This document shows, piece by piece, positions 15,905 to 44,108 of a DNA stretch of 64,000 nucleotides. The position numbers and the translations under genes are program-made. The notes under the pieces are model-generated. The model made no database searches, was not told the DNA's origin, and worked only from the letters and a program-made list of their open reading frames with translations. The stretch is from IMG/VR virus record IMGVR_UViG_3300018876_000008, positions 32,001-96,000 of that record; one strand, given 5' to 3'. Every line of letters begins with the position of its first letter. Position 1 is the first letter of the stretch. Source of the DNA: a virus.

Positions 15905-18900
15905 ATGGCTAAAGACGTAAGAATAGTACCACAACCCACAGGAACTACACTTCCTTATATTTTATTTGAAAATGCAAATGGTGATGTTATGTCACTTAAT
16001 GTTAGTGATGATGGTCGCATAGTATTTTCAGGTGCCACTCATGGTAATAATTTAGTAACCATAGATAGTGACCGTGTTAATATTAAAGGCTCAATACATA
16101 TGGGTAATGACATGGGATTCAACGGGGTTATGACTATTACCGATACTGGAGGGTGGAAAGGTAGTACAGTCGGATTAAAAGGTAATAAAGGTACTGTAGG
16201 ACCAACAGGTCCAAAAGGACATCAAGGACCAACAGGCCCCGCAGGTGCAAGAGGGACAACCGTTAAAGGTGAAAGTGGTGATAAAGGAAGAAAAGGTCTT
16301 AAAGGTCTTAAAGGGCTTAAAGGTAATATTGGTACCAGTAGAATATTTTATAATGATGGAGATAAAGGGTTAAAAGGAAAACAAGGACCACAATCAACTG
16401 ATAAAGGAGATAAAGGACTTAAAGGTCTTAGAGGTGTTAAAGGCGAAATAGGTCAATTAGGTCCAATAGGTATACAAGGACCACAAGGCCCTGTGGGTTT
16501 AAAAGGAATTAACTCAGATAAAGGTATAGTTGGTGATAAAGGGGATAAAGGATTAAAAGGTCTAAAAGGTTTAAAAGGGTTAAAGGGTCCTGTCGGATTA
16601 AAAGGTAAAAAAGGTATTTTGGGACCACAAGGTCCTATTTCTCAAGCCGGTAATGTTGCGGATAAAGGAACAAAAGGTCCAAAAGGGCCACAAGGTCAAA
16701 AGGGACCAAAAGGAATTCAAGGACCACAAGGTACAAAAGGGTTAACCGCAAACACAGGAGGTCAAGGACCAATAGGGCCTAAAGGGCCAACAGGGAGTAA
16801 AGGTATTAAAGGACTTCGTGGTAACAAAGGGGTTAAGGGACTTAAAGGACTTAAGGGGCTTAAAGGTCGTAAAGGTCTTATTGCGGTAACTGGTGATAAT
16901 GGTCAACAAGGCCCAATCGGTCAACAAGGTCCCATTGGTTTTAAAGGTGATAAAGGACTTAAAGGTTTAGAAGGACCAAAAGGACCAAAAGGTATCAAAG
17001 GTCCTCAAGCCGAAACAACCGTTCAAGGACCACAAGGTTCACAAGGACTACAAGGAAATACTTCTACCGATAAAGGTATCAAAGGTCAGAAGGGATTAAA
17101 AGGTAATAAAGGTATAAAAGGATTAAAACCTAATAGTGGTGAAAGAGGGAATATAGGAGAAACAGGACCTAATGGGCCTCAAGGTATTCAAGGTCCGAAA
17201 GGAGATGATAAAGGTCAAAAAGGTTTTAAAGGTATAAAAGGTAAAAAAGGAGTTAAAGGAGCCATAGGTCCACAAGGTGAAATTGGTAATCAAGGTAATA
17301 TTGCTACCACTGGTGATAAAGGTCTTAAAGGATTATTCGGTCCAACAGCATTTAAAGGATTAAAAGGGTTAAAAGGTAATAAAGGATTAAAAGGTCCAAA
17401 AAATATTCAAGGACCACAAGGACCTGTCGGGTTGGATGCGGATAGAGGTTCGATAGGTAATCAAGGACTTCAATCGACCGATAAAGGATTAAAAGGTCCA
17501 AAAGGTCCAAAAGGAATTAAAGGATTAAAAGGTTTAAAACCTGGAAGAGGACCCCAACCTAGTGTAGGGTCGAGGGGAGTTCAAGGACCACAAGGACCAC
17601 AAGGACCGCAAGGGCCTACATCAGCAGATAAAGGATTTAAGGGACTTAAGGGACTTAAAGGTATTACAGGTGTAAGAGGAGAACAAGGTATAGGTGGACA
17701 AAGAGGAACTCAAGGGACACAAGGACCAACAGGAAATAGAGGTAATACAGGTACTAGCTCAGATAAAGGAAATAGAGGTCCCCAAAGTACTGAAAAAGGA
17801 TTAAAAGGACCTGACGGAGGTAGAGGACCTCAATCGACCGATAAAGGACAAAAGGGACCTCAAGGAAGTAGAGGGGCAAAGGCCTCAACAGGTGACCAAG
17901 GACCAACCAGTACTGATAGAGGGAATCAGGGTGAAACCGGTCCTAATGGGCCAAATTCAACTGATAAGGGACAAAAAGGACCTAGAGGAGGAATAGGTAC
18001 TCAAGGACCTAAAGGTTATAAAGGACCACAAGGACCTGCTAACAATGACAGAGGCCCGGTAGGTGATAAAGGTTTTAAAGGACCAAAAGGAAATAGAGGT
18101 GCTATCGGTGGACAAGGTTCAGTGGGTAACACTTCTACCGTTAAGGGTTCTATAGGTCCCTCTAATACTACAAAAGGTCTTAAAGGAATTAAAGGTAGAA
18201 AGGGTAGTGAAGGTCCAAGAGGACCAGAAGGCCCTCAAGGACCAAGAGGTACAGCATCTACAGTTAAAGGATATAAAGGACCTAGTAATAGTGTTAAAGG
18301 TATTAAAGGGTTAAAAGGTTTAAAAGGTTTAAAGGGCCCAAGAGGACCACAAGGTCCAAGAGGACCACAAGGTAGTACATCTACAGTTAAAGGTTCTATA
18401 GGAAATCCTAATAACTTGCAGGGTTTAAAAGGTTCAAAAGGTTTAAAAGGTCTAAAAGGTAGTACAGGACCAAGAGGTCCACAAGGGGCGAGAGGTAATG
18501 TGTCGACAGTTAAAGGATATAAAGGTTTAGCCAATAATACAAAAGGAAATACAGGAGAAACGGGACCTCAAGGTTTAAAAGGTCGACAAGGTAGTCAAGG
18601 ACCACAAGGTCCAAGAGGAACGGCTTCTACTGTTAAAGGACCAAAAGGATTGACAAATACAACTAAAGGTCCAAAAGGTCTTAAAGGGTTAAAAGGACTT
18701 AAAGGAACCAAAGGTCGAAAAGGAGACAAAGGGTTAATAGGTAATCAGTCCACAGTCAAAGGATATAAAGGACCTAATAATACTACAAAAGGACCTAAAG
18801 GACCTAAAGGGTTAAAAGGGTTAAAAGGAAATTTTGGACCTGCAGGATTTAAAGGATTTAAAGGTCCACAATCAACAGTCAAAGGTGCTATAGGTGAACA

Positions 18901-19765
18901 AGGAGTTAAAGGACTAAAAGGAATAAAAGGATATAAAGGACCTGACGGAGGTAGAGGACCTCAAGGAAATAAAGGTGTAAAAGGTCCTGTTGGAAGACCT
19001 GGACCTACCGGACCAACAAATACAACTAAAGGTTTAAAAGGACCAACAGGCCCAAATGGACCTCAAGGACCGAGAGGAGGAATAGGACCACAAGGTATTA
19101 AAGGTCAGAGAGCCCAACAAGGACCATTAGGAGATGTTGGTGATGAGTATGGTCCAAAAGGTCGTAAAGGTGCTATAGGACCTACCAATACAGATAAAGG
19201 TCCAAAAGGACCTATCGGTCGTGATAATCTAACTAAAGGTGCGAAAGGACCTAAAGGTGATATAGGTCCTGTCCTCGTAAAAAATGGACCTGGTGACCAA
19301 GGACCAACAGGTCCAAGAGGAAATAAAGGACCCAAAGGTCCGATAGGTAGAACGGGACCAACAGGACCTATAGGGGGTACAGGACCACAAGGTCCACAAG
19401 GTCCAAGAGGGGCTCAAGGGGTACAAGGACCTCAAGGACCTGCTTCAGATAAGAGAGTTAAAAATAATATTAAGTCTTTAAAGGGTAATTTATCTAAATT
19501 AAAAAATATTAGAGGTGTTAAATTTACATGGAAGGGTGGAATAAATCACAGATTTAATATAAAAGGAAATGATATCGGTTTTATCGCTCAAGAAATTGAT
19601 AAAGTTATACCTGACGTGGTATTTACTGGTGAAGACGGATTCTTAAAATTAGAATACGGTAAGTTAGTTGCTATTGGGATTGGTTCAATACAAGAGCAAC
19701 ATACACGTATAACTCAACTTAAGGAGAGAATTAACATATTGAAATCAAAAGTTTTAAATGGGTAG
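15905..19765 (+). CDS. Collagen-like tail fibre 1 with C-terminal peptidase S74 chaperone
   Basis: Over 1000 aa of interrupted Gly-X-Y (GLK, GPK, GPQ); C-terminal SDKRVKNNI...GFIAQE domain with coiled coil. Confidence 0.88.
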   Translation: MAKDVRIVPQPTGTTLPYILFENANGDVMSLNVSDDGRIVFSGATHGNNLVTIDSDRVNIKGSIHMGNDMGFNGVMTITDTGGWKGSTVGLKGNKGTVGPTGPKGHQGPTGPAGARGTTVKGESGDKGRKGLKGLKGLKGNIGTSRIFYNDGDKGLKGKQGPQSTDKGDKGLKGLRGVKGEIGQLGPIGIQGPQGPVGLKGINSDKGIVGDKGDKGLKGLKGLKGLKGPVGLKGKKGILGPQGPISQAGNVADKGTKGPKGPQGQKGPKGIQGPQGTKGLTANTGGQGPIGPKGPTGSKGIKGLRGNKGVKGLKGLKGLKGRKGLIAVTGDNGQQGPIGQQGPIGFKGDKGLKGLEGPKGPKGIKGPQAETTVQGPQGSQGLQGNTSTDKGIKGQKGLKGNKGIKGLKPNSGERGNIGETGPNGPQGIQGPKGDDKGQKGFKGIKGKKGVKGAIGPQGEIGNQGNIATTGDKGLKGLFGPTAFKGLKGLKGNKGLKGPKNIQGPQGPVGLDADRGSIGNQGLQSTDKGLKGPKGPKGIKGLKGLKPGRGPQPSVGSRGVQGPQGPQGPQGPTSADKGFKGLKGLKGITGVRGEQGIGGQRGTQGTQGPTGNRGNTGTSSDKGNRGPQSTEKGLKGPDGGRGPQSTDKGQKGPQGSRGAKASTGDQGPTSTDRGNQGETGPNGPNSTDKGQKGPRGGIGTQGPKGYKGPQGPANNDRGPVGDKGFKGPKGNRGAIGGQGSVGNTSTVKGSIGPSNTTKGLKGIKGRKGSEGPRGPEGPQGPRGTASTVKGYKGPSNSVKGIKGLKGLKGLKGPRGPQGPRGPQGSTSTVKGSIGNPNNLQGLKGSKGLKGLKGSTGPRGPQGARGNVSTVKGYKGLANNTKGNTGETGPQGLKGRQGSQGPQGPRGTASTVKGPKGLTNTTKGPKGLKGLKGLKGTKGRKGDKGLIGNQSTVKGYKGPNNTTKGPKGPKGLKGLKGNFGPAGFKGFKGPQSTVKGAIGEQGVKGLKGIKGYKGPDGGRGPQGNKGVKGPVGRPGPTGPTNTTKGLKGPTGPNGPQGPRGGIGPQGIKGQRAQQGPLGDVGDEYGPKGRKGAIGPTNTDKGPKGPIGRDNLTKGAKGPKGDIGPVLVKNGPGDQGPTGPRGNKGPKGPIGRTGPTGPIGGTGPQGPQGPRGAQGVQGPQGPASDKRVKNNIKSLKGNLSKLKNIRGVKFTWKGGINHRFNIKGNDIGFIAQEIDKVIPDVVFTGEDGFLKLEYGKLVAIGIGSIQEQHTRITQLKERINILKSKVLNG

Positions 19766-36866: not shown

Positions 36867-37017
36867 AATGATTAGTCATGATTATATAACTATAGTTACC
36901 ACCGATAATCACGTAAAAACATTTAAAAAGGAAAAACTAACACCAACACAAAAGGTATGGTTTGAGAATATAATTGCATGTTCTTTATCATTAATCACCG
37001 AAACCCCTACAAAGTAA
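36847..37017 (+). CDS. Small hypothetical protein, missing from the ORF track
   Basis: MNIREIKMISHDYITIV...ITETPTK (56 aa), ending at a terminator. Confidence 0.55.
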   Translation: MNIREIKMISHDYITIVTTDNHVKTFKKEKLTPTQKVWFENIIACSLSLITETPTK

Positions 37018-37027
37018 GGGGTTTTTT
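37001..37027 (+). terminator. Intrinsic terminator
   Basis: aaacccct...aggggttt followed by a T run. Confidence 0.7.
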
Positions 37028-37058
37028 GTTATTCAGGATATTTATTAATAAAACTTTT

Positions 37059-37628
37059 ATGTCACGTATTATATTAAAAGAAGAAGAAAAACATTATATA
37101 CAAAAACTGTATTTACTTGAAAATGATACGGTAAGGAAAGATGGTACTAAAATGAGGGCTAGTCAAAACTTTTGGGATTTTATAAAATTCGAAGAAGGTG
37201 ACCCTAAGAAACCTGTGGGTTCTATCAAAGAACCTGTACTTAAAGCTTACAAAGACACTAGTGGTATTTGGACTATAGGTTATGGTCACACAGGAAGTGA
37301 TGTTAAAGAAGGGTTAGTTATAACTAAACAACAGGCACTTAAATTATTATACTCCGACGCAACTATTTCCGCAGATTGTGTTAGAAGATTTTTAAGTGAA
37401 TGGAAAGATAAAGGTTTAAAAACTTATATGTTAACACAAGGAGAATTTGATTCATTGGTTTCATTAGTTTTTAATTCAGGATGTGATTCAGTGAGGATGT
37501 CAAGATTTATTCAATACCTTAAATCGGGTCAAAATAAAAAAGCGGGAGAAGCTATTCTAAAATACAAAGCCAATAATTCTGGTTTAAAGAATAGAAGAGA
37601 AAAAGAAAGTAATATGTTTTTATCATGA
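37059..37628 (+). CDS. GH24 phage lysozyme with N-terminal leader (start re-called to 37059)
   Basis: FIKFEEG...AYKDTSGIWTIGYGHT, LTQGEFDSLVSLVFNSG, GLKNRREKE; ATATTTAT at 37038-37045. Confidence 0.88.
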   Translation: MSRIILKEEEKHYIQKLYLLENDTVRKDGTKMRASQNFWDFIKFEEGDPKKPVGSIKEPVLKAYKDTSGIWTIGYGHTGSDVKEGLVITKQQALKLLYSDATISADCVRRFLSEWKDKGLKTYMLTQGEFDSLVSLVFNSGCDSVRMSRFIQYLKSGQNKKAGEAILKYKANNSGLKNRREKESNMFLS

Positions 37629-39880
37629 AAAAATTAATTAAAGAATCGGGACTAAGGAATATGAAGGCGTTAGCCGACAGATATAAAAAGGCTAAAATTT
37701 ATTTCCACCAAGATTTAGACGGTGTTACAACTGCCTTAGCTATGAAAAATTATTTAGAAGATAACGGAATTAAAGTTGTTGATTCTGAGATAATACAGTA
37801 TGGTGATAAAGAGTTCACTGTTAAAAAACAAGACGCTCAAGGAGATACTATGCCGGTTTTAGTTGACTTCGCCCACGGTAAACCAATGTTTGTTGTCCAC
37901 ACGGACCACCATGATAGTCAAACAGGTGTTGAAGATGAGACTTCAACTTCTTTCAGGTCATCAAGGTCTAATGTTGAAACCTTATCGCAGATAATGTCTC
38001 CAAAAGATATTTTTACTTCTGATGATATAAGGTTAATATCTACAGTTGATTCTGCAGATTTTGCGAAGTACGGATTAAAACCTAAAGATATTATGAATTT
38101 TGTTTTTAAACTTCAAAAAGACGAATCATTACAAAAAAATAAAACAGCTTTAGGATTGGCGACTAACAAATTAATGTTAGCCTATAAGAATAAACCTGGA
38201 TTTATGGAGGAATTAGTTATGACTTCTAACCCATCGTTGTTAAATATATTTCAAAATATTAATAGAATCGCGGCGGAGAGAGGATATGCCCTTCCTGATG
38301 AAATGGATTTAAATCAAAAAGATTACATTCAAAAACAAAAAGAAAGTGAAAAAGTATATGTGGACGATAATATTATAGTTCAATATGGTGGAGGTTCAAT
38401 GTTTAAACCAGGTTCTTATGATAGATACACACCATTTGAAAATAACCCTGACGCTGATTTCTTAGTTATTGCTTGGCCTATGGGATTAGTACAAGCATCT
38501 TGTAACCCATTTAAAAAAGAAAGAGAACTAAAAGGTGTTAATTTAGGTGAGATTGCTCAAGAAGTGTTAAGTAAATGGGAGAGTCAATTAAAGGATAAAA
38601 TAATTCCATTATCTACAATAAAGTGGATATCTGAAGGTAACAAACAATTTGGTGATGAATCAGTTGGTTTTACAAATGCAGATTTAGAAGCATTTTATGG
38701 TGATAAAGTACGTTCTATTGATGGTGGTGATGAATATATGGAAAAGTTAAAAGACATCATGGATACACCTTCAACTCAATTAACGGAAGACCAGTGGGCA
38801 ATATTAGACAAATTAGGTGTACCTGCGTGGGAAATGATTCAAGCAAACTCAGGAGGACATAAATGTATTACTAATATATCGGCACTTAATTATTTCGGTA
38901 GAGGTAAGAGAAAACCTGAAGGTAAATATAAATACAATAAAGATAAAGGTGACTCACCTTATGTTAAGTTTACTAAAATGATTCAAAATGAATTTGTTAG
39001 AAAACTTAAAGAAAAGATTAATGAATCTAAAAATTTAAATGAATCGGTTTTAAATGAAGCAATAGGTTTTATATTTCCAATTGGTAATGAAGAATTCAAT
39101 GTTGGTTATGATTCCTCAGGATTAGGTAGAGGTAAGAAAAAAGTATTAGATAAAGACGAGGCGATTCATAATAGTGATTATGGGGCAGGTGACGCTAAAC
39201 ATCAACACAGAGGAGGACATTTAGGAATTGATATATTTGCACCTAAGGGTACTCCAATTATTTCAGCTACGGATGGAGAAGTGATTAAAGTTAGAAGAAA
39301 AGATAGAACTACTGGTGGTAAGACAGTTAGTGTATTATTAAATGGTATAGTTTATTATTATGCACACTTAGACCAAGTATCTGATAATATAAGTAAAGGT
39401 GACGATATTAAAAAAGGCACATTCATAGGTACAGTTGGTGATACAGGAAACGCTAAAGGAACCCATCCACACTTACACTTTTCGATGTATGAGAAAAGAG
39501 GTGGGTATAAAAGAGGAACTATTGACCCATGGCCATTTTTAAAAGATAGTCTTGATGGGGGAGATTTAATTGTTATTGAACCAGGACAAGTTGTTGATAA
39601 AGTTGAGGGAAAAATTGCACGTGAAGATTTAAGTATTACGGATATTGTTAACAACGGTGATAACTCTGAATTAATATCAATGGGTTCACAAGGTAAAGGA
39701 GTTGAAGAAATCCAAACAATTTTAGATAAAGAAGGTTACGATTTAGGGGATGCTGGGATTGATGGAATCTATGGTCCTTATACAATGAGAGCGGTTAAGA
39801 AGTTCCAAAAAGATAATGGTTTAAATTTGATTGACGGAATTGTTGGTATTGAAACGTCAACAGAATTCAAGAAACACTAA
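37625..39880 (+). CDS. DHH-family phosphoesterase + M23 peptidase + peptidoglycan-binding domain fusion
   Basis: HQDLDG, LVDF, TDHH (DHH); HLGIDIFA...YYYAHL...HPHLHF (M23); DGIYGPYTMRAVKKFQKDNGL...DGIVG (PG_binding_1). Confidence 0.85.
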   Translation: MKKLIKESGLRNMKALADRYKKAKIYFHQDLDGVTTALAMKNYLEDNGIKVVDSEIIQYGDKEFTVKKQDAQGDTMPVLVDFAHGKPMFVVHTDHHDSQTGVEDETSTSFRSSRSNVETLSQIMSPKDIFTSDDIRLISTVDSADFAKYGLKPKDIMNFVFKLQKDESLQKNKTALGLATNKLMLAYKNKPGFMEELVMTSNPSLLNIFQNINRIAAERGYALPDEMDLNQKDYIQKQKESEKVYVDDNIIVQYGGGSMFKPGSYDRYTPFENNPDADFLVIAWPMGLVQASCNPFKKERELKGVNLGEIAQEVLSKWESQLKDKIIPLSTIKWISEGNKQFGDESVGFTNADLEAFYGDKVRSIDGGDEYMEKLKDIMDTPSTQLTEDQWAILDKLGVPAWEMIQANSGGHKCITNISALNYFGRGKRKPEGKYKYNKDKGDSPYVKFTKMIQNEFVRKLKEKINESKNLNESVLNEAIGFIFPIGNEEFNVGYDSSGLGRGKKKVLDKDEAIHNSDYGAGDAKHQHRGGHLGIDIFAPKGTPIISATDGEVIKVRRKDRTTGGKTVSVLLNGIVYYYAHLDQVSDNISKGDDIKKGTFIGTVGDTGNAKGTHPHLHFSMYEKRGGYKRGTIDPWPFLKDSLDGGDLIVIEPGQVVDKVEGKIAREDLSITDIVNNGDNSELISMGSQGKGVEEIQTILDKEGYDLGDAGIDGIYGPYTMRAVKKFQKDNGLNLIDGIVGIETSTEFKKH

Positions 39881-39886
39881 ATTATA

Positions 39887-40243
39887 TTAAATCAAAGAAA
39901 AGGAGACATTGTCTCCTTTTTTTATGCCGTGATTTTTACAGTATCTACCTTCAACTTCTAAAACTGTATTACCAAAACCTTGATATGACTCACAATTTTT
40001 ATTATCATTACACGGTTGACAGTTGGAATGGATTTCAGTTATTTCTGTTCCGTTAATAAAAATGATATCTAATGGTATTATACAGTTATACATCCAAAAA
40101 CTTTGTTCAGTGGTGTTTGGCATAAAAAATAACATACCATCAAAAGATTCGTCAAACTTTTTACCCATCATTCCTTTAGAAATGGAATCTGGAGTGGCAG
40201 AAACTTTGACTTTTAAAATATTATCATTTATTATTACTTTCAT
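39887..40243 (-). CDS. DUF192 family protein (start re-called to 40243, MKVIIND)
   Basis: KGMMG, DGMLF, FWMYNCIIPLDIIFI, VLEV; ATATTTAT (minus) at 40248-40255. Confidence 0.85.
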   Translation of the reverse strand: MKVIINDNILKVKVSATPDSISKGMMGKKFDESFDGMLFFMPNTTEQSFWMYNCIIPLDIIFINGTEITEIHSNCQPCNDNKNCESYQGFGNTVLEVEGRYCKNHGIKKGDNVSFSLI

Positions 40244-40271
40244 ACTAATAAATATACAATAAAAAGAATAT

Positions 40272-40679
40272 ATGAAAAAATACGCAGGTATAATTGTAAG
40301 GTGTAACAATAAGGTTCTACTTTGCAAAAGAAATTCGGACACGACATTACCAGGGTTTTGGTCATGTCCTGCAGGAAGTGTAGAAGATGATGAGCCAGTT
40401 AAAGACGCGGCCATTAGAGAATTTATTGAAGAGACTGATTTACCTGTCATGGGTGATATAGATTTTGCTGCAGTCATAAAACGATATAATAGAGATGGTA
40501 CAAAGGTTAAAGGTATGTTATATACCTATCTTATGGATGTTGAAGAAGAAATGTTTCCGGATTTAGAGAACGCTCACGATGGTGATGAGCATACAGAGTG
40601 TGGTTATTTTGGTAAAGATGAACTACCTGAACCAATGACCAAACAATTTAATAAACTTATAAATATAATTTTAAAATGA
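40272..40679 (+). CDS. NUDIX hydrolase
   Basis: Nudix box GSVEDDEPVKDAAIREFIEETDL. Confidence 0.9.
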   Translation: MKKYAGIIVRCNNKVLLCKRNSDTTLPGFWSCPAGSVEDDEPVKDAAIREFIEETDLPVMGDIDFAAVIKRYNRDGTKVKGMLYTYLMDVEEEMFPDLENAHDGDEHTECGYFGKDELPEPMTKQFNKLINIILK

Positions 40680-40885
40680 ACGAACAATTATTTAACATGT
40701 TGATGAAATCTGCTGAGGCAGATAGAGCAAAGGCTTTATTATCTTTAGAATTACTTGGTAATAAAGCAGTGGGGATTGGAGACCATTCAACAGAAGACTT
40801 CTACAAAAATGCTGAAGAAGCACTTACTACTTTAGTGGATGCAGATGATAGAATCGCAGCATTAACTAAGTATTTTAATAAGTAA
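40676..40885 (+). CDS. Small hypothetical protein
   Basis: 69 aa with VGIGDHS motif; ATGA-type overlap. Confidence 0.7.
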   Translation: MNEQLFNMLMKSAEADRAKALLSLELLGNKAVGIGDHSTEDFYKNAEEALTTLVDADDRIAALTKYFNK

Positions 40886-40908
40886 ATTCAAAAAAATTGG
40901 TCAAAGAG

Positions 40909-41045
40909 CTTGTCTGAGAGTAATTTTTTTGTATCTTTGTATAACTTTTAAAGAAAACGGGCATATTTATATTTTACCCTACTGATTATTTCAGAAATTT
41001 TTTTTAAAAAGTATTTGACAGATTGAAAATTTTGTTGTAAGTTTG
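40909..41045 (+). promoter_or_regulatory. Tandem promoters of the large ncRNA (two host-type, one phage-type)
   Basis: P1: CTTG 40909-40912, 19 nt, TATCTTTG 40932-40939. ATATTTAT 40963-40970. P2: TTTG 41014-41017, 20 nt, TAAGTTTG 41038-41045. Confidence 0.7.
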
Positions 41046-41054
41046 TCAAACAAA

Positions 41055-41086
41055 TCAGTAAGAGTACTGAAGACGTTCTTTGAAAA
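41055..41086 (+). promoter_or_regulatory. boxB-like hairpin + boxA-like antitermination element
   Basis: tcagta-agag-tactga hairpin (41055-41070) followed by GTTCTTTGAAAA (41075-41086), resembling rRNA-leader boxA. Confidence 0.5.
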
Positions 41087-41094
41087 TATTAATA

Positions 41095-41912
41095 AGTGTC
41101 TAATTTGACCATCACAGTTTGTGAAAGAAATACAAAAAGATTAACCCCTTTTTTCTACAACGGTTAAAATAAGACATTTGACGGCGGTTTAGCGTCGTTA
41201 GATAACCCCAGTAATGGGACTAAAGGGATTGAAACGGGAATAGTACACCGTGAATGTCCGCAGTCGTGAGGCTGACAACTAAACAAAGTGGCTACAATCA
41301 AGACCCTAAGGGCAACTGCTAAAGGGACGAGATTACTCTGAATCCGTGGAATATCAGAGTTGAGATAGTGATATCAATAGGAAAAGCTACAGGTGACGGT
41401 TCGACACATCCTGTCAGATGTTGTAGGGCTGGGTACCAGTACGAAGGGATTCCGAGACGATAAGTTAACGTATTCCTGAAGTACCGTAAGTTGACAGACT
41501 TACAGAGAGGTGTGAAGCATTTTGTTTCCAAAAGAAACGAACCTTCTCCCGAAGCACATCTTTCATTATCCCACAGTTGCTATACTAACTAACAATTAGA
41601 AAGCAAAAGTTCTTCGGGCGTTGACAACGAAAGGTGTCTAACACTTCGAGTCATAGACTAACGAAGTCATTGGTAAGACCGCAAGTCTTCTGATGTCGAT
41701 TACCAAATACCTGGTGGGACGGCCATCCCTTCGTAAACTCGCAAGGTTTAACAGAGTAAAGTAGTAGTTGAGTAGTTGTTAACGAGAAGAGTGGTTCACT
41801 CAAATAACCGACACTGACTTGATACTCTCGGCAACGATAGTGGATAAGTGAGCAACCGACATAGGGTAATCTCACTAAAGACAGGTCACATAAACGTGTA
41901 ATCTCAGCGTTC
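41095..41912 (+). ncRNA. Large (~820 nt) structured ncRNA, GOLLD-like
   Basis: No credible ORF and higher GC. GNRA hairpins at 41207-18, 41261-74, 41364-75, 41828-37. Long-range helices 41096-110/41162-177 and 41312-18/41574-80. The terminal hairpin loop GTAATCTC (41898-905) is complementary to GAGATTAC (41329-36). Has its own promoters and terminator. The family call rests on size, context and recalled resemblance only. Confidence 0.75.
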
Positions 41913-41935
41913 TATACTTTATATATATCTTCCTT

Positions 41936-41968
41936 AACCTCAGTTCTAACCAACTGAGGTTTTTTTTT
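41936..41968 (+). terminator. Intrinsic terminator of the ncRNA
   Basis: aacctcagtt-ctaacc-aactgaggtt followed by a T run. Confidence 0.88.
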
Positions 41969-41977
41969 ACCTAATAA

Positions 41978-42009
41978 TTTGTGAGTTAGAATAATATTCC
42001 TTATATTTG
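41978..42009 (+). promoter_or_regulatory. Bacteroidota-type promoter
   Basis: TTTG 41978-41981, 20 nt, TATATTTG 42002-42009. Confidence 0.7.
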
Positions 42010-42029
42010 TAATACTAAAAAAAAATATT

Positions 42030-42338
42030 ATGGAAGGAATTATCACATTAATCATTATCGGTTTCATTTTAACATTTGGTTCACAATTACTAAAAGGTAT
42101 TGGAAACATCTTCGCAGCTTCAGGTAGAGTGGGAGGATGGATTTTAGGAATTATTTTAGTTCTATTTCTTTTAAAGACCATTGTATTCTCACCTAAACCT
42201 ACAGAACCAGGTTCACTATCTCATGCAGAGGAAGTATTTGGAGGTAAAATTACTAAGGAAGGTGAATTTTTTATAGACGTATACGGTGATAAGTACAGAT
42301 GGAATGATACTGAAGAGGATTACGAATGGGTTCAGTAA
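42030..42338 (+). CDS. Two-TM membrane protein
   Basis: Two hydrophobic helices, then a soluble tail. Confidence 0.7.
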   Translation: MEGIITLIIIGFILTFGSQLLKGIGNIFAASGRVGGWILGIILVLFLLKTIVFSPKPTEPGSLSHAEEVFGGKITKEGEFFIDVYGDKYRWNDTEEDYEWVQ

Positions 42339-42388
42339 AATCACTCAAATTATTAGGTCAAGTCATTAATTTTAATTATATTTGTTAT

Positions 42389-42637
42389 ATGGAAAAAGGA
42401 GATAAAATAAAAGATATCAGAGACAATAGTATTCACATCGTTGAGTCAGTAGATGTATATGATGAAGTTACACTTATTTATACAGAAGGTAAAAAATACA
42501 TACCAATCGAGTCAGTTGAATTACTTAGTAAAGTGATTGAAAAAATAAAAAGTTTAATTTTTAACTTAGTTAAACCCAAAAACGAAAAGATACTAACCGT
42601 TAAAGAATTTGAAAAAAAATATTATGAAAATAGTTAA
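42389..42637 (+). CDS. Small hypothetical protein (start re-called to 42389, MEKGDK)
   Basis: TATATTTG at 42377-42384 immediately upstream; KGDKI motif similar to the 43242 ORF (KVGDYV). Confidence 0.6.
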   Translation: MEKGDKIKDIRDNSIHIVESVDVYDEVTLIYTEGKKYIPIESVELLSKVIEKIKSLIFNLVKPKNEKILTVKEFEKKYYENS

Positions 42638-42881
42638 AATTATACATCCTACATTTGGTAATCTACAAGAGAAAGTTTTTGAGGATTCTATACAATTTAA
42701 GATTTACCTTAAAATGGTACATTCTTGTTTGGAATTAAAACAAGACCTCACAACATCTAATGGGAATGATTTTCTTCTCCATATTCCTTACGATGTTCTT
42801 AAATGTTCGATTATTATGGGAGAGGCACAAACAGTAAGTTTGGCTGAATATGCAATTCAAAAATCTAAAATGGAAAAATAA
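42609..42881 (+). CDS. Hypothetical protein
   Basis: 90-aa ORF; the true start may be 42624. Confidence 0.6.
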   Translation: MKKNIMKIVKIIHPTFGNLQEKVFEDSIQFKIYLKMVHSCLELKQDLTTSNGNDFLLHIPYDVLKCSIIMGEAQTVSLAEYAIQKSKMEK

Positions 42882-43249
42882 TGGTAAAAATAATTAATAA
42901 TTTATGGAGTATGATTAAAATGATTATCGTTTTAATCTTTATGTTAGTAGGTGTTCACTTTGTAGGAACTGAGAAACTTGTAGAAGTGGGTCTTATTTGT
43001 CTTGGATTCTATCTTACATATAAACTCATAGATTTAGGTTATTTGTACCTTAAAAATAAGATAAACGGTTTTAAAACGAAAGAAACTAAAGATTCTAAAA
43101 CTGTTAAGGTTAAAGAAGAAATTAATCCTGAAATTAAATATATTGAAGGACTGATTAATGATATAAAAAAGAAAACTAAAAAGAGTGTAAAAGATAAAAA
43201 TACTTTAGACCTTTTAGGTATTAAACTAAAACAATTAAAGCGTGTATAA
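42881..43249 (+). CDS. Membrane protein
   Basis: Two N-terminal TM segments; Lys-rich tail. Confidence 0.65.
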   Translation: MVKIINNLWSMIKMIIVLIFMLVGVHFVGTEKLVEVGLICLGFYLTYKLIDLGYLYLKNKINGFKTKETKDSKTVKVKEEINPEIKYIEGLINDIKKKTKKSVKDKNTLDLLGIKLKQLKRV

Positions 43250-43433
43250 AGTTGGGGATTATGTAATACCAAAAGATAGTAAGACTATCAAGGTAATACA
43301 GGAGATAGAGGAGATTGAAAATCAAGTAATCATTTACATGACTGATAATAGTTCTTATCATATTAGTCAAATATTAACCTTAGATGAGGTAGTAAAAAAA
43401 GATAAACATTATAAAGAAAGTTTTAAAATATGA
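43242..43433 (+). CDS. Small hypothetical protein
   Basis: 63 aa, GTG start, coupled to its neighbours. Confidence 0.55.
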   Translation: MYKVGDYVIPKDSKTIKVIQEIEEIENQVIIYMTDNSSYHISQILTLDEVVKKDKHYKESFKI

Positions 43434-43909
43434 GTGAAAAAAAAGAAATAGTAGGATTTACTGCGGGTAATTTCGATTTGATACACCCTGGTTACATTTA
43501 CACATTTGAGAGCGCTAAAAAACATTGTGATAAATTTATTGTATTCTTACAAAGAGACCCATCACTTCATAGAAAATCTAAGTATAAACCAGTGGTTCCT
43601 TTATATGAAAGGTATAGAACATTAATGGCTATTGAATATATTGATGAGGTTTATGTTTACCAAACTGAAGAAGAGTTGTATGAGTTAATTAAATTTTTTA
43701 AACCTGATGTGAGAATTTTAGGTGAGGATTATATTGGTAAATCTTTTACGGGGGACGACTTACCTCCCAAAGTAGTCTATACTACACGAGCACACGGATG
43801 GTCGACTACCAGAATGAAAGACATGATTGCGATGCAGACAATCAAACAAAACCCCGAAGTAATCAAAGATGCAAATTATTTTGAACGTAAATTAGGAATG
43901 GATGATTAA
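43430..43909 (+). CDS. Cytidylyltransferase (TagD/RfaE-like)
   Basis: GFTAGNFDLIHPGY (HxGH variant), LGEDY, RAHGWSTT. Confidence 0.85.
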   Translation: MSEKKEIVGFTAGNFDLIHPGYIYTFESAKKHCDKFIVFLQRDPSLHRKSKYKPVVPLYERYRTLMAIEYIDEVYVYQTEEELYELIKFFKPDVRILGEDYIGKSFTGDDLPPKVVYTTRAHGWSTTRMKDMIAMQTIKQNPEVIKDANYFERKLGMDD

Positions 43910-44108
43910 AAAAGTATTAAGTTCAAGTAAAGTAGAGGTTAGTGATGACATTAAACACATGCCCAATCAAAAATGGCATAGAATTATAAGTTTTATTAAA
44001 TCAGGGATTAGAATTATTGGTTACGGATTTATACCCTTTAACTTGACAGTCGCGTGTTTCATACTTATTATTAGTGAAGTTATAGGAATCATTGAAGAAA
44101 TGGTTTAG
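43902..44108 (+). CDS. Small membrane protein
   Basis: HRIISFIKSGIRI...ILIISEVIGIIEEMV. Confidence 0.7.
   Translation: MIKKVLSSSKVEVSDDIKHMPNQKWHRIISFIKSGIRIIGYGFIPFNLTVACFILIISEVIGIIEEMV

What the first reader, a model, noticed from the sequence alone, without database searches (positions are those of the whole stretch)
41095..41912. ~820-nt ornate ncRNA (GOLLD-like or a new class)
An independent transcription unit with no ORF. It has many GNRA-capped helices, nested long-range stems (41096-110/41162-177; 41312-18/41574-80 extended by 41324-27/41569-72; 41848-53/41871-76) and a 3' hairpin whose loop (GTAATCTC 41898-905) could pair with GAGATTAC ~570 nt upstream. Size and phage context fit GOLLD, a giant RNA class of unknown function. 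No embedded tRNA is visible.
Basis: partly seen in the sequence, partly recalled or inferred. Interest (0 to 1): 0.78.

Follow-up and report, generated by a model that had tools for sequence, protein, structure and literature searches.

The report
GOLLD RNA gene in marine phage

Summary
Window 41505-41910 (+) matches Rfam GOLLD (RF02032) over the whole model at 301.6 bits, twice the 150-bit cut-off. That model covers only the 3' half.

The 5' half is the GOLLD 5' domain. Its signature hairpin (41182-41205) lies a fixed distance upstream of a GOLLD 3' domain in all 94 sufficiently long phage contigs, and it opens the env-38 RNA whose cage structure was solved.

On 22 non-redundant relatives, 183 pairs are 96% kept and 77 show changes on both sides.

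The unit runs from a Bacteroidota-type promoter (41014-41045) to a terminator (41936-41968). No reading frame is conserved. Metatranscriptome contigs from four studies lie on it.

Its two long-range pairings do not: the 3' loop with GAGATTAC, and 41312-18 with 41574-80. Covariation supports other long-range pairings instead.

This clade has its own terminator, no neighbouring tRNA (0 of 42 loci) and a shorter 5' domain. A conserved 5' leader and hairpin lie outside the published model.

The family is known and its function is not. This scan has reported GOLLD RNAs on other DNA before.

The parts
41014..41045 (+). Promoter of Bacteroidota type: TTTG (41014-17; TTGACA 41015-20), a 20-nt spacer, then TAAGTTTG (41038-45). 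Predicted start near 41052.
   Evidence: Read from the sequence. 43 of 55 distinct upstream regions of related GOLLD loci have TAnnTTTG, against 7% of random 70-nt stretches, and all 43 have a TTG 15-26 nt further up. The consensus itself (TTTG at -33, TAnnTTTG at -7) is from established knowledge of Bacteroides promoters. The start site is inferred.
41056..41069 (+). Small 5' hairpin CAGUA-AGAG-UACUG between the promoter and the leader.
   Evidence: Sequence. The equivalent hairpins in relatives have different sequences, for example UGAUG/AUCAUC and CGGA/UCCG. The longest RNA contig starts at 41065.
41075..41091 (+). Conserved leader GUUCUUUGAAAAUAUUA. GUUCUU is invariant. No pairing partner was found.
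   Evidence: Alignments A2 and A3. It is present in 40 of 42 loci of this clade and 51 of 52 of the env-38-like clade. It lies outside the Rfam model and outside the env-38 cryo-EM construct. The partner search was not decisive.
41093..41180 (+). Variable 5' hairpin with closing stems 41093-41101/41172-41180 and 41104-41110/41162-41168.
   Evidence: The same architecture with different sequence appears in 11 of 11 clade members, z -2.0 to -4.3, and in most env-38-like relatives.
41182..41504 (+). GOLLD 5' domain core. It starts with the signature hairpin CGGCG-GUUUAG-CGUCG followed by UUAGAUAA (41182-41205), then 14 further helices.
   Evidence: The signature pattern was found in more than 115 phage contigs. 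Every one of the 94 with enough sequence has a GOLLD 3' domain 324-420 nt downstream. Helices 2-15 of the curated structure covary. The env-38 construct begins with the same hairpin.
41505..41910 (+). GOLLD 3' domain, the part covered by Rfam RF02032.
   Evidence: 301.6 bits, model positions 1-416 of 416, E = 2.4e-85. 90 of 97 model pairs are standard pairs in the window. Covariation throughout.
41346..41350 (+). 5' side of pseudoknot PK-A: GUGGA in the loop of hairpin 41335-41360. It pairs with 41570-41574.
   Evidence: Found by a covariation scan. 99% paired, and 2 of 5 pairs changed on both sides (GUGG/CCAC, AUGG/CCAU, GAGG/CCUC). Also kept in the sister clade, with a complete swap in L058.
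41570..41574 (+). 3' side of PK-A: CCCAC, just after the first 3'-domain hairpin at the start of the linker. In the window 41570 is C, where 21 of 22 clade members have U, so only four pairs form.
41548..41554 (+). 5' side of pseudoknot PK-B: CCCGAAG in the internal loop of the first 3'-domain hairpin. It pairs with 41612-41618 and closes the linker into a loop.
   Evidence: 100% paired, 2 of 7 pairs changed on both sides. 6 of 7 pairs covary in the sister clade. It corresponds to env-38 467-471/555-559 in Supplementary Table 3 of PMC12286853.
41565..41611 (+). Variable linker (J13/15 in published numbering), 47 nt, with no tRNA. It contains UUGC (41577-80), a candidate partner of the GCAA loop at 41681-84.
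   Evidence: Low conservation in A2 and A3. ARAGORN finds no tRNA. The UUGC/GCAA match is sequence only. The published L20-J13/15 kissing loop is intermolecular. Not testable here because the loop is invariant.
41612..41618 (+). 3' side of PK-B: CUUCGGG.
41633..41638 (+). 5' side of pseudoknot PK-C: GGUGUC. It pairs with GACACU at 41810-41815.
   Evidence: Both sides are invariant in this clade. The equivalent pairing covaries at 5 of 6 pairs in the sister clade and matches env-38 576-580/743-747.
41810..41815 (+). 3' side of PK-C: GACACU.
41720..41725 (+). Loop CGGCCA of hairpin 41716-41729 (L21a in published numbering), with central GC at 41722-23.
   Evidence: The central GC is kept in all 22 clade members. 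In env-38 a GC/CG palindrome here forms the kissing loop between the two half-cages. The mapping is by position in the Rfam structure and is inferred.
41895..41909 (+). Last hairpin (P27): stem CGU/GCG, loop GUAAUCUCA.
   Evidence: Rfam alignment. The stem covaries between clades (ACG/CGU, AGG/CCU, CUU/AG) while the loop stays the same. RNA contigs of three studies end at 41906-41907.
41936..41968 (+). Intrinsic terminator: a 10-bp stem followed by a U run.
   Evidence: Terminator scan. It is conserved with compensating changes in relatives (CCUCAG/CUGAGG to CCUCGG/CCGAGG).

Best explanation
Window 41051-41968 (+) is a stand-alone gene for a GOLLD RNA carried by a large marine phage whose host is probably a member of the Bacteroidota.

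Shown:
- Family membership.
- The two-domain fold of about 840 nt, supported by covariation.
- Three pseudoknots.
- No conserved reading frame.
- A conserved promoter and terminator.
- The sequence occurs in metatranscriptome assemblies.

Inferred from solved GOLLD structures:
- The RNA folds into a 5' cap domain and a 3' ring domain.
- Copies join through loop-loop contacts. Here these would be the GC-centred loop at 41720-25 and the GCAA loop at 41681-84 with the linker.
- They close into an RNA-only cage of roughly 12-14 chains, with the 47-nt linker pointing inward.
- The cage is made during lytic growth.

What the cage does is unknown for the whole family.

My odds: GOLLD identity 0.97; cage assembly by this member about 0.6.
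For: - Full-length Rfam GOLLD match at 301.6 bits against a 150-bit cut-off. Twelve relatives from both clades score 280-323 bits.
- The 5' signature co-occurs with the 3' domain in 94 of 94 testable loci, and env-38 starts with it.
- 183 pairs: 96.3% of cells paired, 77 pairs changed on both sides, 0 of 500 shuffles as good, slid controls 34-43%.
- Many invariant G-U pairs fix the + strand as the RNA strand.
- Pseudoknots PK-A and PK-B: 99.6% paired, 0 of 500 shuffles reach the observed share paired, cells changed on both sides or covariation score, and 6 of 500 reach the count of pairs changed on both sides. PK-B and PK-C match published env-38 covariations.
- No ORF is conserved.
- Promoter and terminator are conserved.
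- Contigs from RNA libraries of four studies lie on 41065-41907.
- Phage setting: lysozyme, M23 peptidase, tail-fibre, DNA methylase and thymidylate synthase genes, in a 169-kb IMG/VR virus record.
- Cage formation and its contacts come from PMC12286853 and PMC12990946.
Against: - Nothing argues against family membership.
- The frequent tRNA neighbourhood is missing. There is no tRNA in the window, and the phage's eight tRNAs lie 47 kb away on the other strand.
- The 5' domain is about 65-95 nt shorter than in env-38-like relatives, and cage stoichiometry depends on 5'-domain elements. Assembly and chain number of this member are therefore untested.
- The RNA evidence is assembled contigs only. 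It shows no strand, no level and no exact ends.
- The host is inferred only from the promoter type.
Confidence: 0.93

Rival explanations
1. It is a new class of large ornate RNA that only resembles GOLLD in size and setting.
For: Blastn finds no relative among 50,697 GenBank phage records.
Against: Full-length covariance-model match at twice the curated cut-off. Conserved GOLLD loops and pseudoknots. The 5' domain is shared with env-38-like GOLLDs.
Confidence: 0.01
2. It is a GOLLD RNA, but in this clade it does not work as a closed cage. It acts as a monomer or small oligomer that binds a host machine such as the ribosome, a tRNA-processing enzyme or a defence protein.
For: - The function of the family is unknown.
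- Ribosome pull-down is mentioned in PMC12286853.
- This clade has a shortened 5' domain and an extra 5' leader and hairpin.
- The sister clade is welded to tRNA-Met, which hints at a link to tRNA biology.
Against: - The loops used for chain-to-chain contacts are kept: the GC-centred L21a loop, the GCAA loops and the 3' terminal loop.
- Every GOLLD examined by cryo-EM, from two laboratories, formed 10-14-mers.
- Cage and binding roles do not exclude each other.
Confidence: 0.2
3. The conservation reflects a protein-coding gene or a DNA-level element such as a replication origin or packaging site, not an RNA.
For: Short ORFs of 31-74 codons exist on both strands.
Against: - The ORFs are broken in most relatives.
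- Substitutions come as compensating pairs, and invariant G-U pairs would be A-C on the other strand.
- The unit is bracketed by a promoter and a terminator.
- RNA-library contigs lie on it.
Confidence: 0.01

Closest known systems
GOLLD RNA env-38 (marine metagenome, 833 nt; 14-chain cage, PDB 9MEE; Kretsch et al. 2025, PMC12286853)
   Same: - Same family by Rfam.
- Same opening hairpin of the 5' domain.
- Same 3' domain, including the linker-closing pseudoknot (env-38 467-471/555-559) and the 576-580/743-747 pseudoknot.
- GC-centred L21a loop and GUAAUCUCA end loop.
- Linker of similar length (42 against 47 nt).
- Marine origin.
   Different: - The window's 5' domain after the opening hairpin is about 65-95 nt shorter. 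The 3' domain starts at +324, against +391 to +420 in env-38-like loci.
- The window has its own terminator and no adjacent tRNA. env-38 lies beside tRNA-Met, and 27 of 52 env-38-like loci have a same-strand tRNA within 1 kb, tRNA-Met in 26 of them.
- The solved construct lacks the leader and 5' hairpin seen here at 41075-41181.
Streptococcus agalactiae GOLLD (about 700 nt; 12-chain cage, PDB 9L0R; summarised in PMC12990946)
   Same: Same family. It has a reduced 5' domain, which shows that members with fewer 5' helices still assemble.
   Different: The Sag RNA lacks P9, P11a-c and P21b. The window keeps both P21a- and P21b-type hairpins. The host phylum and the sequences differ. Which 5' helices the window lacks could not be mapped here.
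GOLLD in Mycobacterium tRNA arrays and Lactobacillus brevis prophage (Morgado et al. 2020; Weinberg et al. 2009, as cited in PMC12990946 and PMC12286853)
   Same: Same family, with a phage or mobile-element setting. Expression rises during phage lysis, as reported for L. brevis.
   Different: Those copies sit in or beside tRNA arrays, some with a tRNA inside the linker. Here the linker is tRNA-free and the phage's tRNA array is 47 kb away.
ROOL RNA (8-chain cage)
   Same: A large phage-borne RNA that forms an RNA-only cage, with unknown function.
   Different: Unrelated sequence and fold. No Rfam match here even at E up to 1.

Membership tests
GOLLD RNA (Rfam RF02032) | Covariance-model score at or above the curated gathering score (150 bits) over the whole model | tested here: met
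   301.6 bits, model 1-416 of 416, window 41505-41910 +.
GOLLD RNA (Rfam RF02032) | 3'-domain helices form and are maintained by compensating changes | tested here: met
   90 of 97 model pairs are standard pairs in the window. Helices 16-30 of the curated structure covary on 22 relatives.
GOLLD RNA (Rfam RF02032) | A structured, less conserved 5' domain of about 400 nt upstream of the 3' domain | tested here: met
   The 5' signature hairpin lies at a fixed distance in 94 of 94 testable loci. Helices 2-15 covary. The same hairpin opens env-38.
GOLLD RNA (Rfam RF02032) | Pseudoknot that closes the variable linker (env-38 467-471 with 555-559) | tested here: met
   41548-54 with 41612-18: 100% paired, 2 pairs changed on both sides. 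6 of 7 pairs covary in the sister clade. Published pairs.
GOLLD RNA (Rfam RF02032) | Second 3'-domain pseudoknot (env-38 576-580 with 743-747) | tested here: met
   GGUGUC 41633-38 is complementary to GACACU 41810-15. Both are invariant in this clade, so covariation is seen only in the sister clade.
GOLLD RNA (Rfam RF02032) | Conserved terminal hairpin loop GUAAUCUCA | tested here: met
   41898-41906. The loop is constant while the stem covaries across clades.
GOLLD RNA (Rfam RF02032) | Encoded by a phage or prophage | tested here: met
   169-kb IMG/VR virus record. Lysozyme, M23 peptidase, tail-fibre, methylase and thymidylate synthase genes around it.
GOLLD RNA (Rfam RF02032) | tRNA gene adjacent to or inside the RNA (frequent, not obligatory) | tested here: not met
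   No tRNA in 64 kb. The phage's eight tRNAs lie 47 kb away on the other strand. 0 of 42 loci of this clade have a tRNA within 1 kb, against 27 of 52 in the sister clade.
GOLLD RNA (Rfam RF02032) | Self-assembly into a closed homo-oligomeric cage (10-14 chains) | not testable with these tools
   Only sequence proxies are available: the GC-centred L21a loop (41722-23) is kept in 22 of 22 members, and the GCAA loop 41681-84 has a UUGC in the linker.
ROOL, OLE, raiA (other large ornate RNAs in Rfam) | Covariance-model match | tested here: not met
   No match at gathering score in the window, and none at E up to 1 in 40800-42100.

The most novel reading that the evidence does not exclude
Native GOLLD transcripts of these marine phages may be larger and more tightly tied together than the published P1-P27 model.
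- A conserved leader (GUUCUUUGAA...) and a variable hairpin precede the first published helix in both clades.
- A 5'-domain loop (GUGGA, 41346-50) pairs with the start of the linker (41570-74).
- The window's clade has no tRNA, its own terminator and a 5' domain about 65-95 nt shorter. It might therefore build a cage with a chain number different from env-38's 14.

I could not establish whether the 5' extension and this pseudoknot have already been described.
Probability: 0.3. Interest if true: 0.45.

Novelty: new member of a known kind. Interest (0 to 1): 0.3.

Why it matters
GOLLD is one of the largest bacterial and phage non-coding RNAs. It forms striking RNA-only cages, yet its function is unknown. 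Another member does not change that.

This locus and its roughly 90 relatives do offer useful material:
- A clean, self-contained transcription unit with no tRNA attached.
- A graded series of natural variants for covariation work on the poorly modelled 5' domain.
- Evidence for a conserved 5' extension and for a 5'-domain-to-linker pairing, both of which could matter when designing constructs for structural work.
- A sharp split between a tRNA-Met-linked clade and a tRNA-free clade, which could be used to test whether GOLLD function depends on tRNAs.

The sequence is nearly identical in runs from 13 marine, sponge and salt-marsh studies, so the phage is common.

Tried and rejected
- Blastn of 40900-42000 against GenBank phages found no match.
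- The 5' signature pattern gave no hit in 185,579 species' representative genomes. No prophage copy and no host clue came from it.
- Tblastn of the neighbouring 751-aa peptidase gave only partial matches. The best were two uncultured phage records of 635 and 642 kb, which give no host.
- TAnnTTTG is not enriched in the window as a whole: 86 found against 97 expected. The promoter argument therefore rests only on its conservation upstream of GOLLD loci.
- My first composite pattern had gaps too narrow and found nothing, even in the window.
- RNAalifold on the whole alignment paired the 5' signature (41186-41203) with the 3' end loop region. I rejected this. All columns are invariant in this clade, and the sister clade changes one side only (UUAGAU to UUAAAU; GCG to GCC) while the local P27 stem covaries.
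- RNAalifold on the 3' domain alone gave a fold at odds with Rfam. I used the Rfam structure instead.
- One pair count used nested brackets for two crossing helices and is meaningless. It was redone.
- A search for a partner of the leader gave only many weak, G-U-rich options.
- Covariation of the published L20-linker kissing loop could not be tested. The loop is invariant here, and my anchor pattern failed on the sister clade.
- Laid RNA contigs left the flanking genes 39000-40500 and 42006-44000 uncovered.
- RNA contig starts at 41172-41183 could mean 5' processing, or merely assembly breaks at the strain-variable hairpin. This stays undecided.
- The weak Rfam match at 41926-41967 (a toxic sRNA family, 24 bits against a 50-bit cut-off) is only the terminator hairpin.

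Full report
**What is there.** Window 40886-42029 has no long reading frame between a 69-codon gene (40676-40885) and a 102-codon gene (42030-42338). G+C rises from about 0.30 to 0.43-0.45 across 41150-41900. Scanning the whole 64-kb window against Rfam 15 gives one match above threshold: GOLLD (RF02032), 41505-41910 on the + strand. It scores 301.6 bits against a curated cut-off of 150 and covers model positions 1-416 of 416. A permissive rescan of 40800-42100 adds only a sub-threshold match, which is the terminator hairpin. There is nothing for ROOL, OLE or raiA. It is the only GOLLD copy in the 169-kb virus record that holds the window.

**The 5' half.** The Rfam model covers only the conserved 3' domain. 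A hairpin-plus-tail motif at 41182-41205 (CGGCG-GUUUAG-CGUCG, then UUAGAUAA) was turned into a pattern, which hit more than 115 IMG/VR phage contigs.
- All 94 loci with enough downstream sequence carry a GOLLD 3' domain starting 324-420 nt after the motif. The 21 without one are all cut short.
- Twelve loci from both groups score 280-323 bits against Rfam GOLLD.
- The env-38 GOLLD, whose 14-chain cage was solved, starts with the same hairpin (Supplementary Table 4 of PMC12286853).

So 41182-41504 is the GOLLD 5' domain. The relatives fall into two clades:
- The window's clade has 42 loci that are 73-91% identical to the window over about 900 aligned nt.
- An env-38-like clade has 52 loci at about 48% identity, with a 5' domain about 65-95 nt longer.

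**Structure and covariation.** On 22 non-redundant members of the window's clade (alignment A3) I counted a structure built from two parts. The 5' domain came from the RNAalifold consensus. The 3' domain came from the Rfam consensus, mapped residue by residue (90 of 97 pairs are standard pairs in the window).
- Of 183 pairs, 96.3% of cells are paired.
- 77 pairs show changes on both sides.
- None of 500 shuffles reaches any of the five measures.
- Sliding the partners by 1-3 columns drops pairing to 34-43%.
- Many invariant G-U pairs would be A-C on the other strand, so the + strand is the RNA strand.
- The single sequence folds better than all 20 shuffles, z = -2.75.

1. 41096-110/41162-177 is real. 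It is the closing stem (41093-41110 with 41162-41180) of a hairpin whose sequence differs between relatives but whose shape is kept in 11 of 11 folded.
2. 41848-53/41871-76 is the Rfam hairpin 41848-52/41871-75.
3. The 3' hairpin with loop GUAAUCUCA is the last GOLLD hairpin. Its stem covaries between clades while the loop is constant.
4. The proposed pairing of that loop with GAGATTAC (41329-36) fails. It is 73% paired and 491 of 500 shuffles do as well. GAUU 41331-34 pairs with AAUC 41296-99, where all four pairs covary. In the solved structure this loop contacts nearby 3'-domain elements.
5. 41312-18/41574-80 with 41324-27/41569-72 is complementary in the window and 82% kept, but it shows no covariation. 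The two relatives that changed the loop did not compensate. GGG 41324-26 sits in a covarying local helix with 41304-07.

**Long-range pairings the data do support.** A scan of all column pairs and formal counts (99.6% paired, four pairs changed on both sides, 0 of 500 shuffles reaching the observed share paired, cells changed on both sides or covariation score, 6 of 500 reaching the count of pairs changed on both sides) give two pseudoknots.
- **PK-A** joins GUGGA (41346-50), in the loop of hairpin 41335-60, to CCCAC (41570-74) just after the first 3'-domain hairpin. Variants GUGG/CCAC, AUGG/CCAU and GAGG/CCUC occur. The sister clade keeps GUGGAU/AUCCAC, and one member has swapped both sides to UCCGA/UCGGA.
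- **PK-B** joins CCCGAAG (41548-54) to CUUCGGG (41612-18) and closes the 47-nt linker into a loop. It corresponds to env-38 467-471/555-559 in the published covariation table. It covaries at six of seven pairs in the sister clade.
- **PK-C**, a third pairing, joins GGUGUC 41633-38 to GACACU 41810-15. It is invariant here but covaries in the sister clade and matches env-38 576-580/743-747.

The UUGC at 41577-80 may instead be the partner of the GCAA loop at 41681-84. That would be the kissing loop the cryo-EM work found to link neighbouring chains. This is sequence complementarity only.

**Transcription unit.**
- Upstream lies TTTG (41014-17), a 20-nt spacer and TAAGTTTG (41038-45). This fits the -33/-7 promoter consensus of Bacteroidota, which I take from established knowledge.
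- The motif is not enriched in the window as a whole. However, TAnnTTTG with a TTG 15-26 nt upstream occurs before 43 of 55 distinct related GOLLD loci, against 7% of random stretches.
- A 10-bp terminator with a U run lies at 41936-41968. It is conserved with compensating changes.
- None of the short ORFs inside is conserved.
- The 917-nt unit is almost identical (0.97 of sampled words) in runs from 13 studies of marine, seawater, sponge and salt-marsh samples. Six RNA libraries hold 73-86% of it.
- Contigs from four RNA libraries of four studies lie on 41065-41907. Three of them stop at 41906-41907 without a loose end. This is a weak hint that the stable RNA ends at the base of the last hairpin, upstream of the terminator. 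Contigs cannot give strand, level or exact ends.

**Setting.**
- Upstream are three giant collagen-like tail-fibre genes (the first, 15905-19765, was checked here), a DNA methylase, a lysozyme (36978-37628), an M23 peptidase with a peptidoglycan-binding domain (37625-39880), a DUF192 gene, a NUDIX hydrolase and a small conserved phage protein.
- Downstream are small ORFs, a nucleotidyltransferase and thymidylate synthase.
- No tRNA lies in the window. The phage's eight tRNAs form an array 47 kb away on the other strand.

**Differences from the known picture.**
- In the env-38-like clade, 27 of 52 loci have a same-strand tRNA within 1 kb, tRNA-Met in 26 of the 27: 8-23 nt after the RNA's 3' end in 17 loci (one of these a tRNA-Leu), and 160-550 nt upstream in 10. 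In the window's clade none of 42 does, and a terminator follows instead.
- Both clades carry a conserved leader (GUUCUUUGAA...) and a closing stem with a variable hairpin, 55-110 nt upstream of the first helix of the published construct. One RNA contig includes this part.
- Published work shows that the number of chains in the cage (10, 12 or 14) depends on 5'-domain elements. The stoichiometry of this shorter-domain clade is therefore open.

**Verdict.** This is a genuine, complete and probably expressed GOLLD RNA gene. It is a new member of a known family, whose function remains unknown. Other agents' notes on this genome also call the host Bacteroidota-type and the habitat marine or salt-marsh. 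The scan has reported GOLLD RNAs on other DNA before.

Noticed in passing
related loci, e.g. L004, L065, L080, L102 (env-38-like clade): A same-strand tRNA starts 8-23 nt after the GOLLD 3' end in 17 loci (tRNA-Met in 16, tRNA-Leu in one) or, always tRNA-Met, lies 160-550 nt upstream in 10 more, out of 52. None of the 42 loci of the window's clade has any tRNA within 1 kb.
   Followed up: partly
L065:362-778 (+) and L058:9813-10209 (+): Phage contigs that carry GOLLD also carry full-length tmRNA genes (Rfam RF00023, 71-79 bits) within a few kb.
   Followed up: no
window 41075-41181, and 55-110 nt upstream of the 5' signature in relatives: A conserved leader (GUUCUUUGAA...) plus a closing stem and a variable hairpin precede the first helix of the published GOLLD model in 91 of 94 loci. 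No pairing partner for the leader was found.
   Followed up: partly
genome positions 120775-122752 (- strand), 24.8 kb beyond the window's end: An array of eight tRNA genes (Thr, Tyr, Ser, Met, Arg, Leu, Ile, Lys), far from the GOLLD gene and on the other strand.
   Followed up: no
window 39887-40477 (-) and 40272-40679 (+): A DUF192 ORF and a NUDIX ORF overlap by 206 nt on opposite strands, and both have family matches. The DUF192 domain itself lies outside the overlap, so the minus-strand gene probably starts at a later codon.
   Followed up: no
window 41052-41968: The stretch is nearly identical (0.97 of sampled 31-letter words) in runs from 13 studies of marine, seawater, sponge and salt-marsh samples from 2018 to 2025, so this phage or its close kin is widespread.
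   Followed up: partly
window 37625-39880: The only long relatives of the N-terminal 460 residues of this M23 peptidase protein among GenBank phages are two uncultured phage records of 635 and 642 kb.
   Followed up: no
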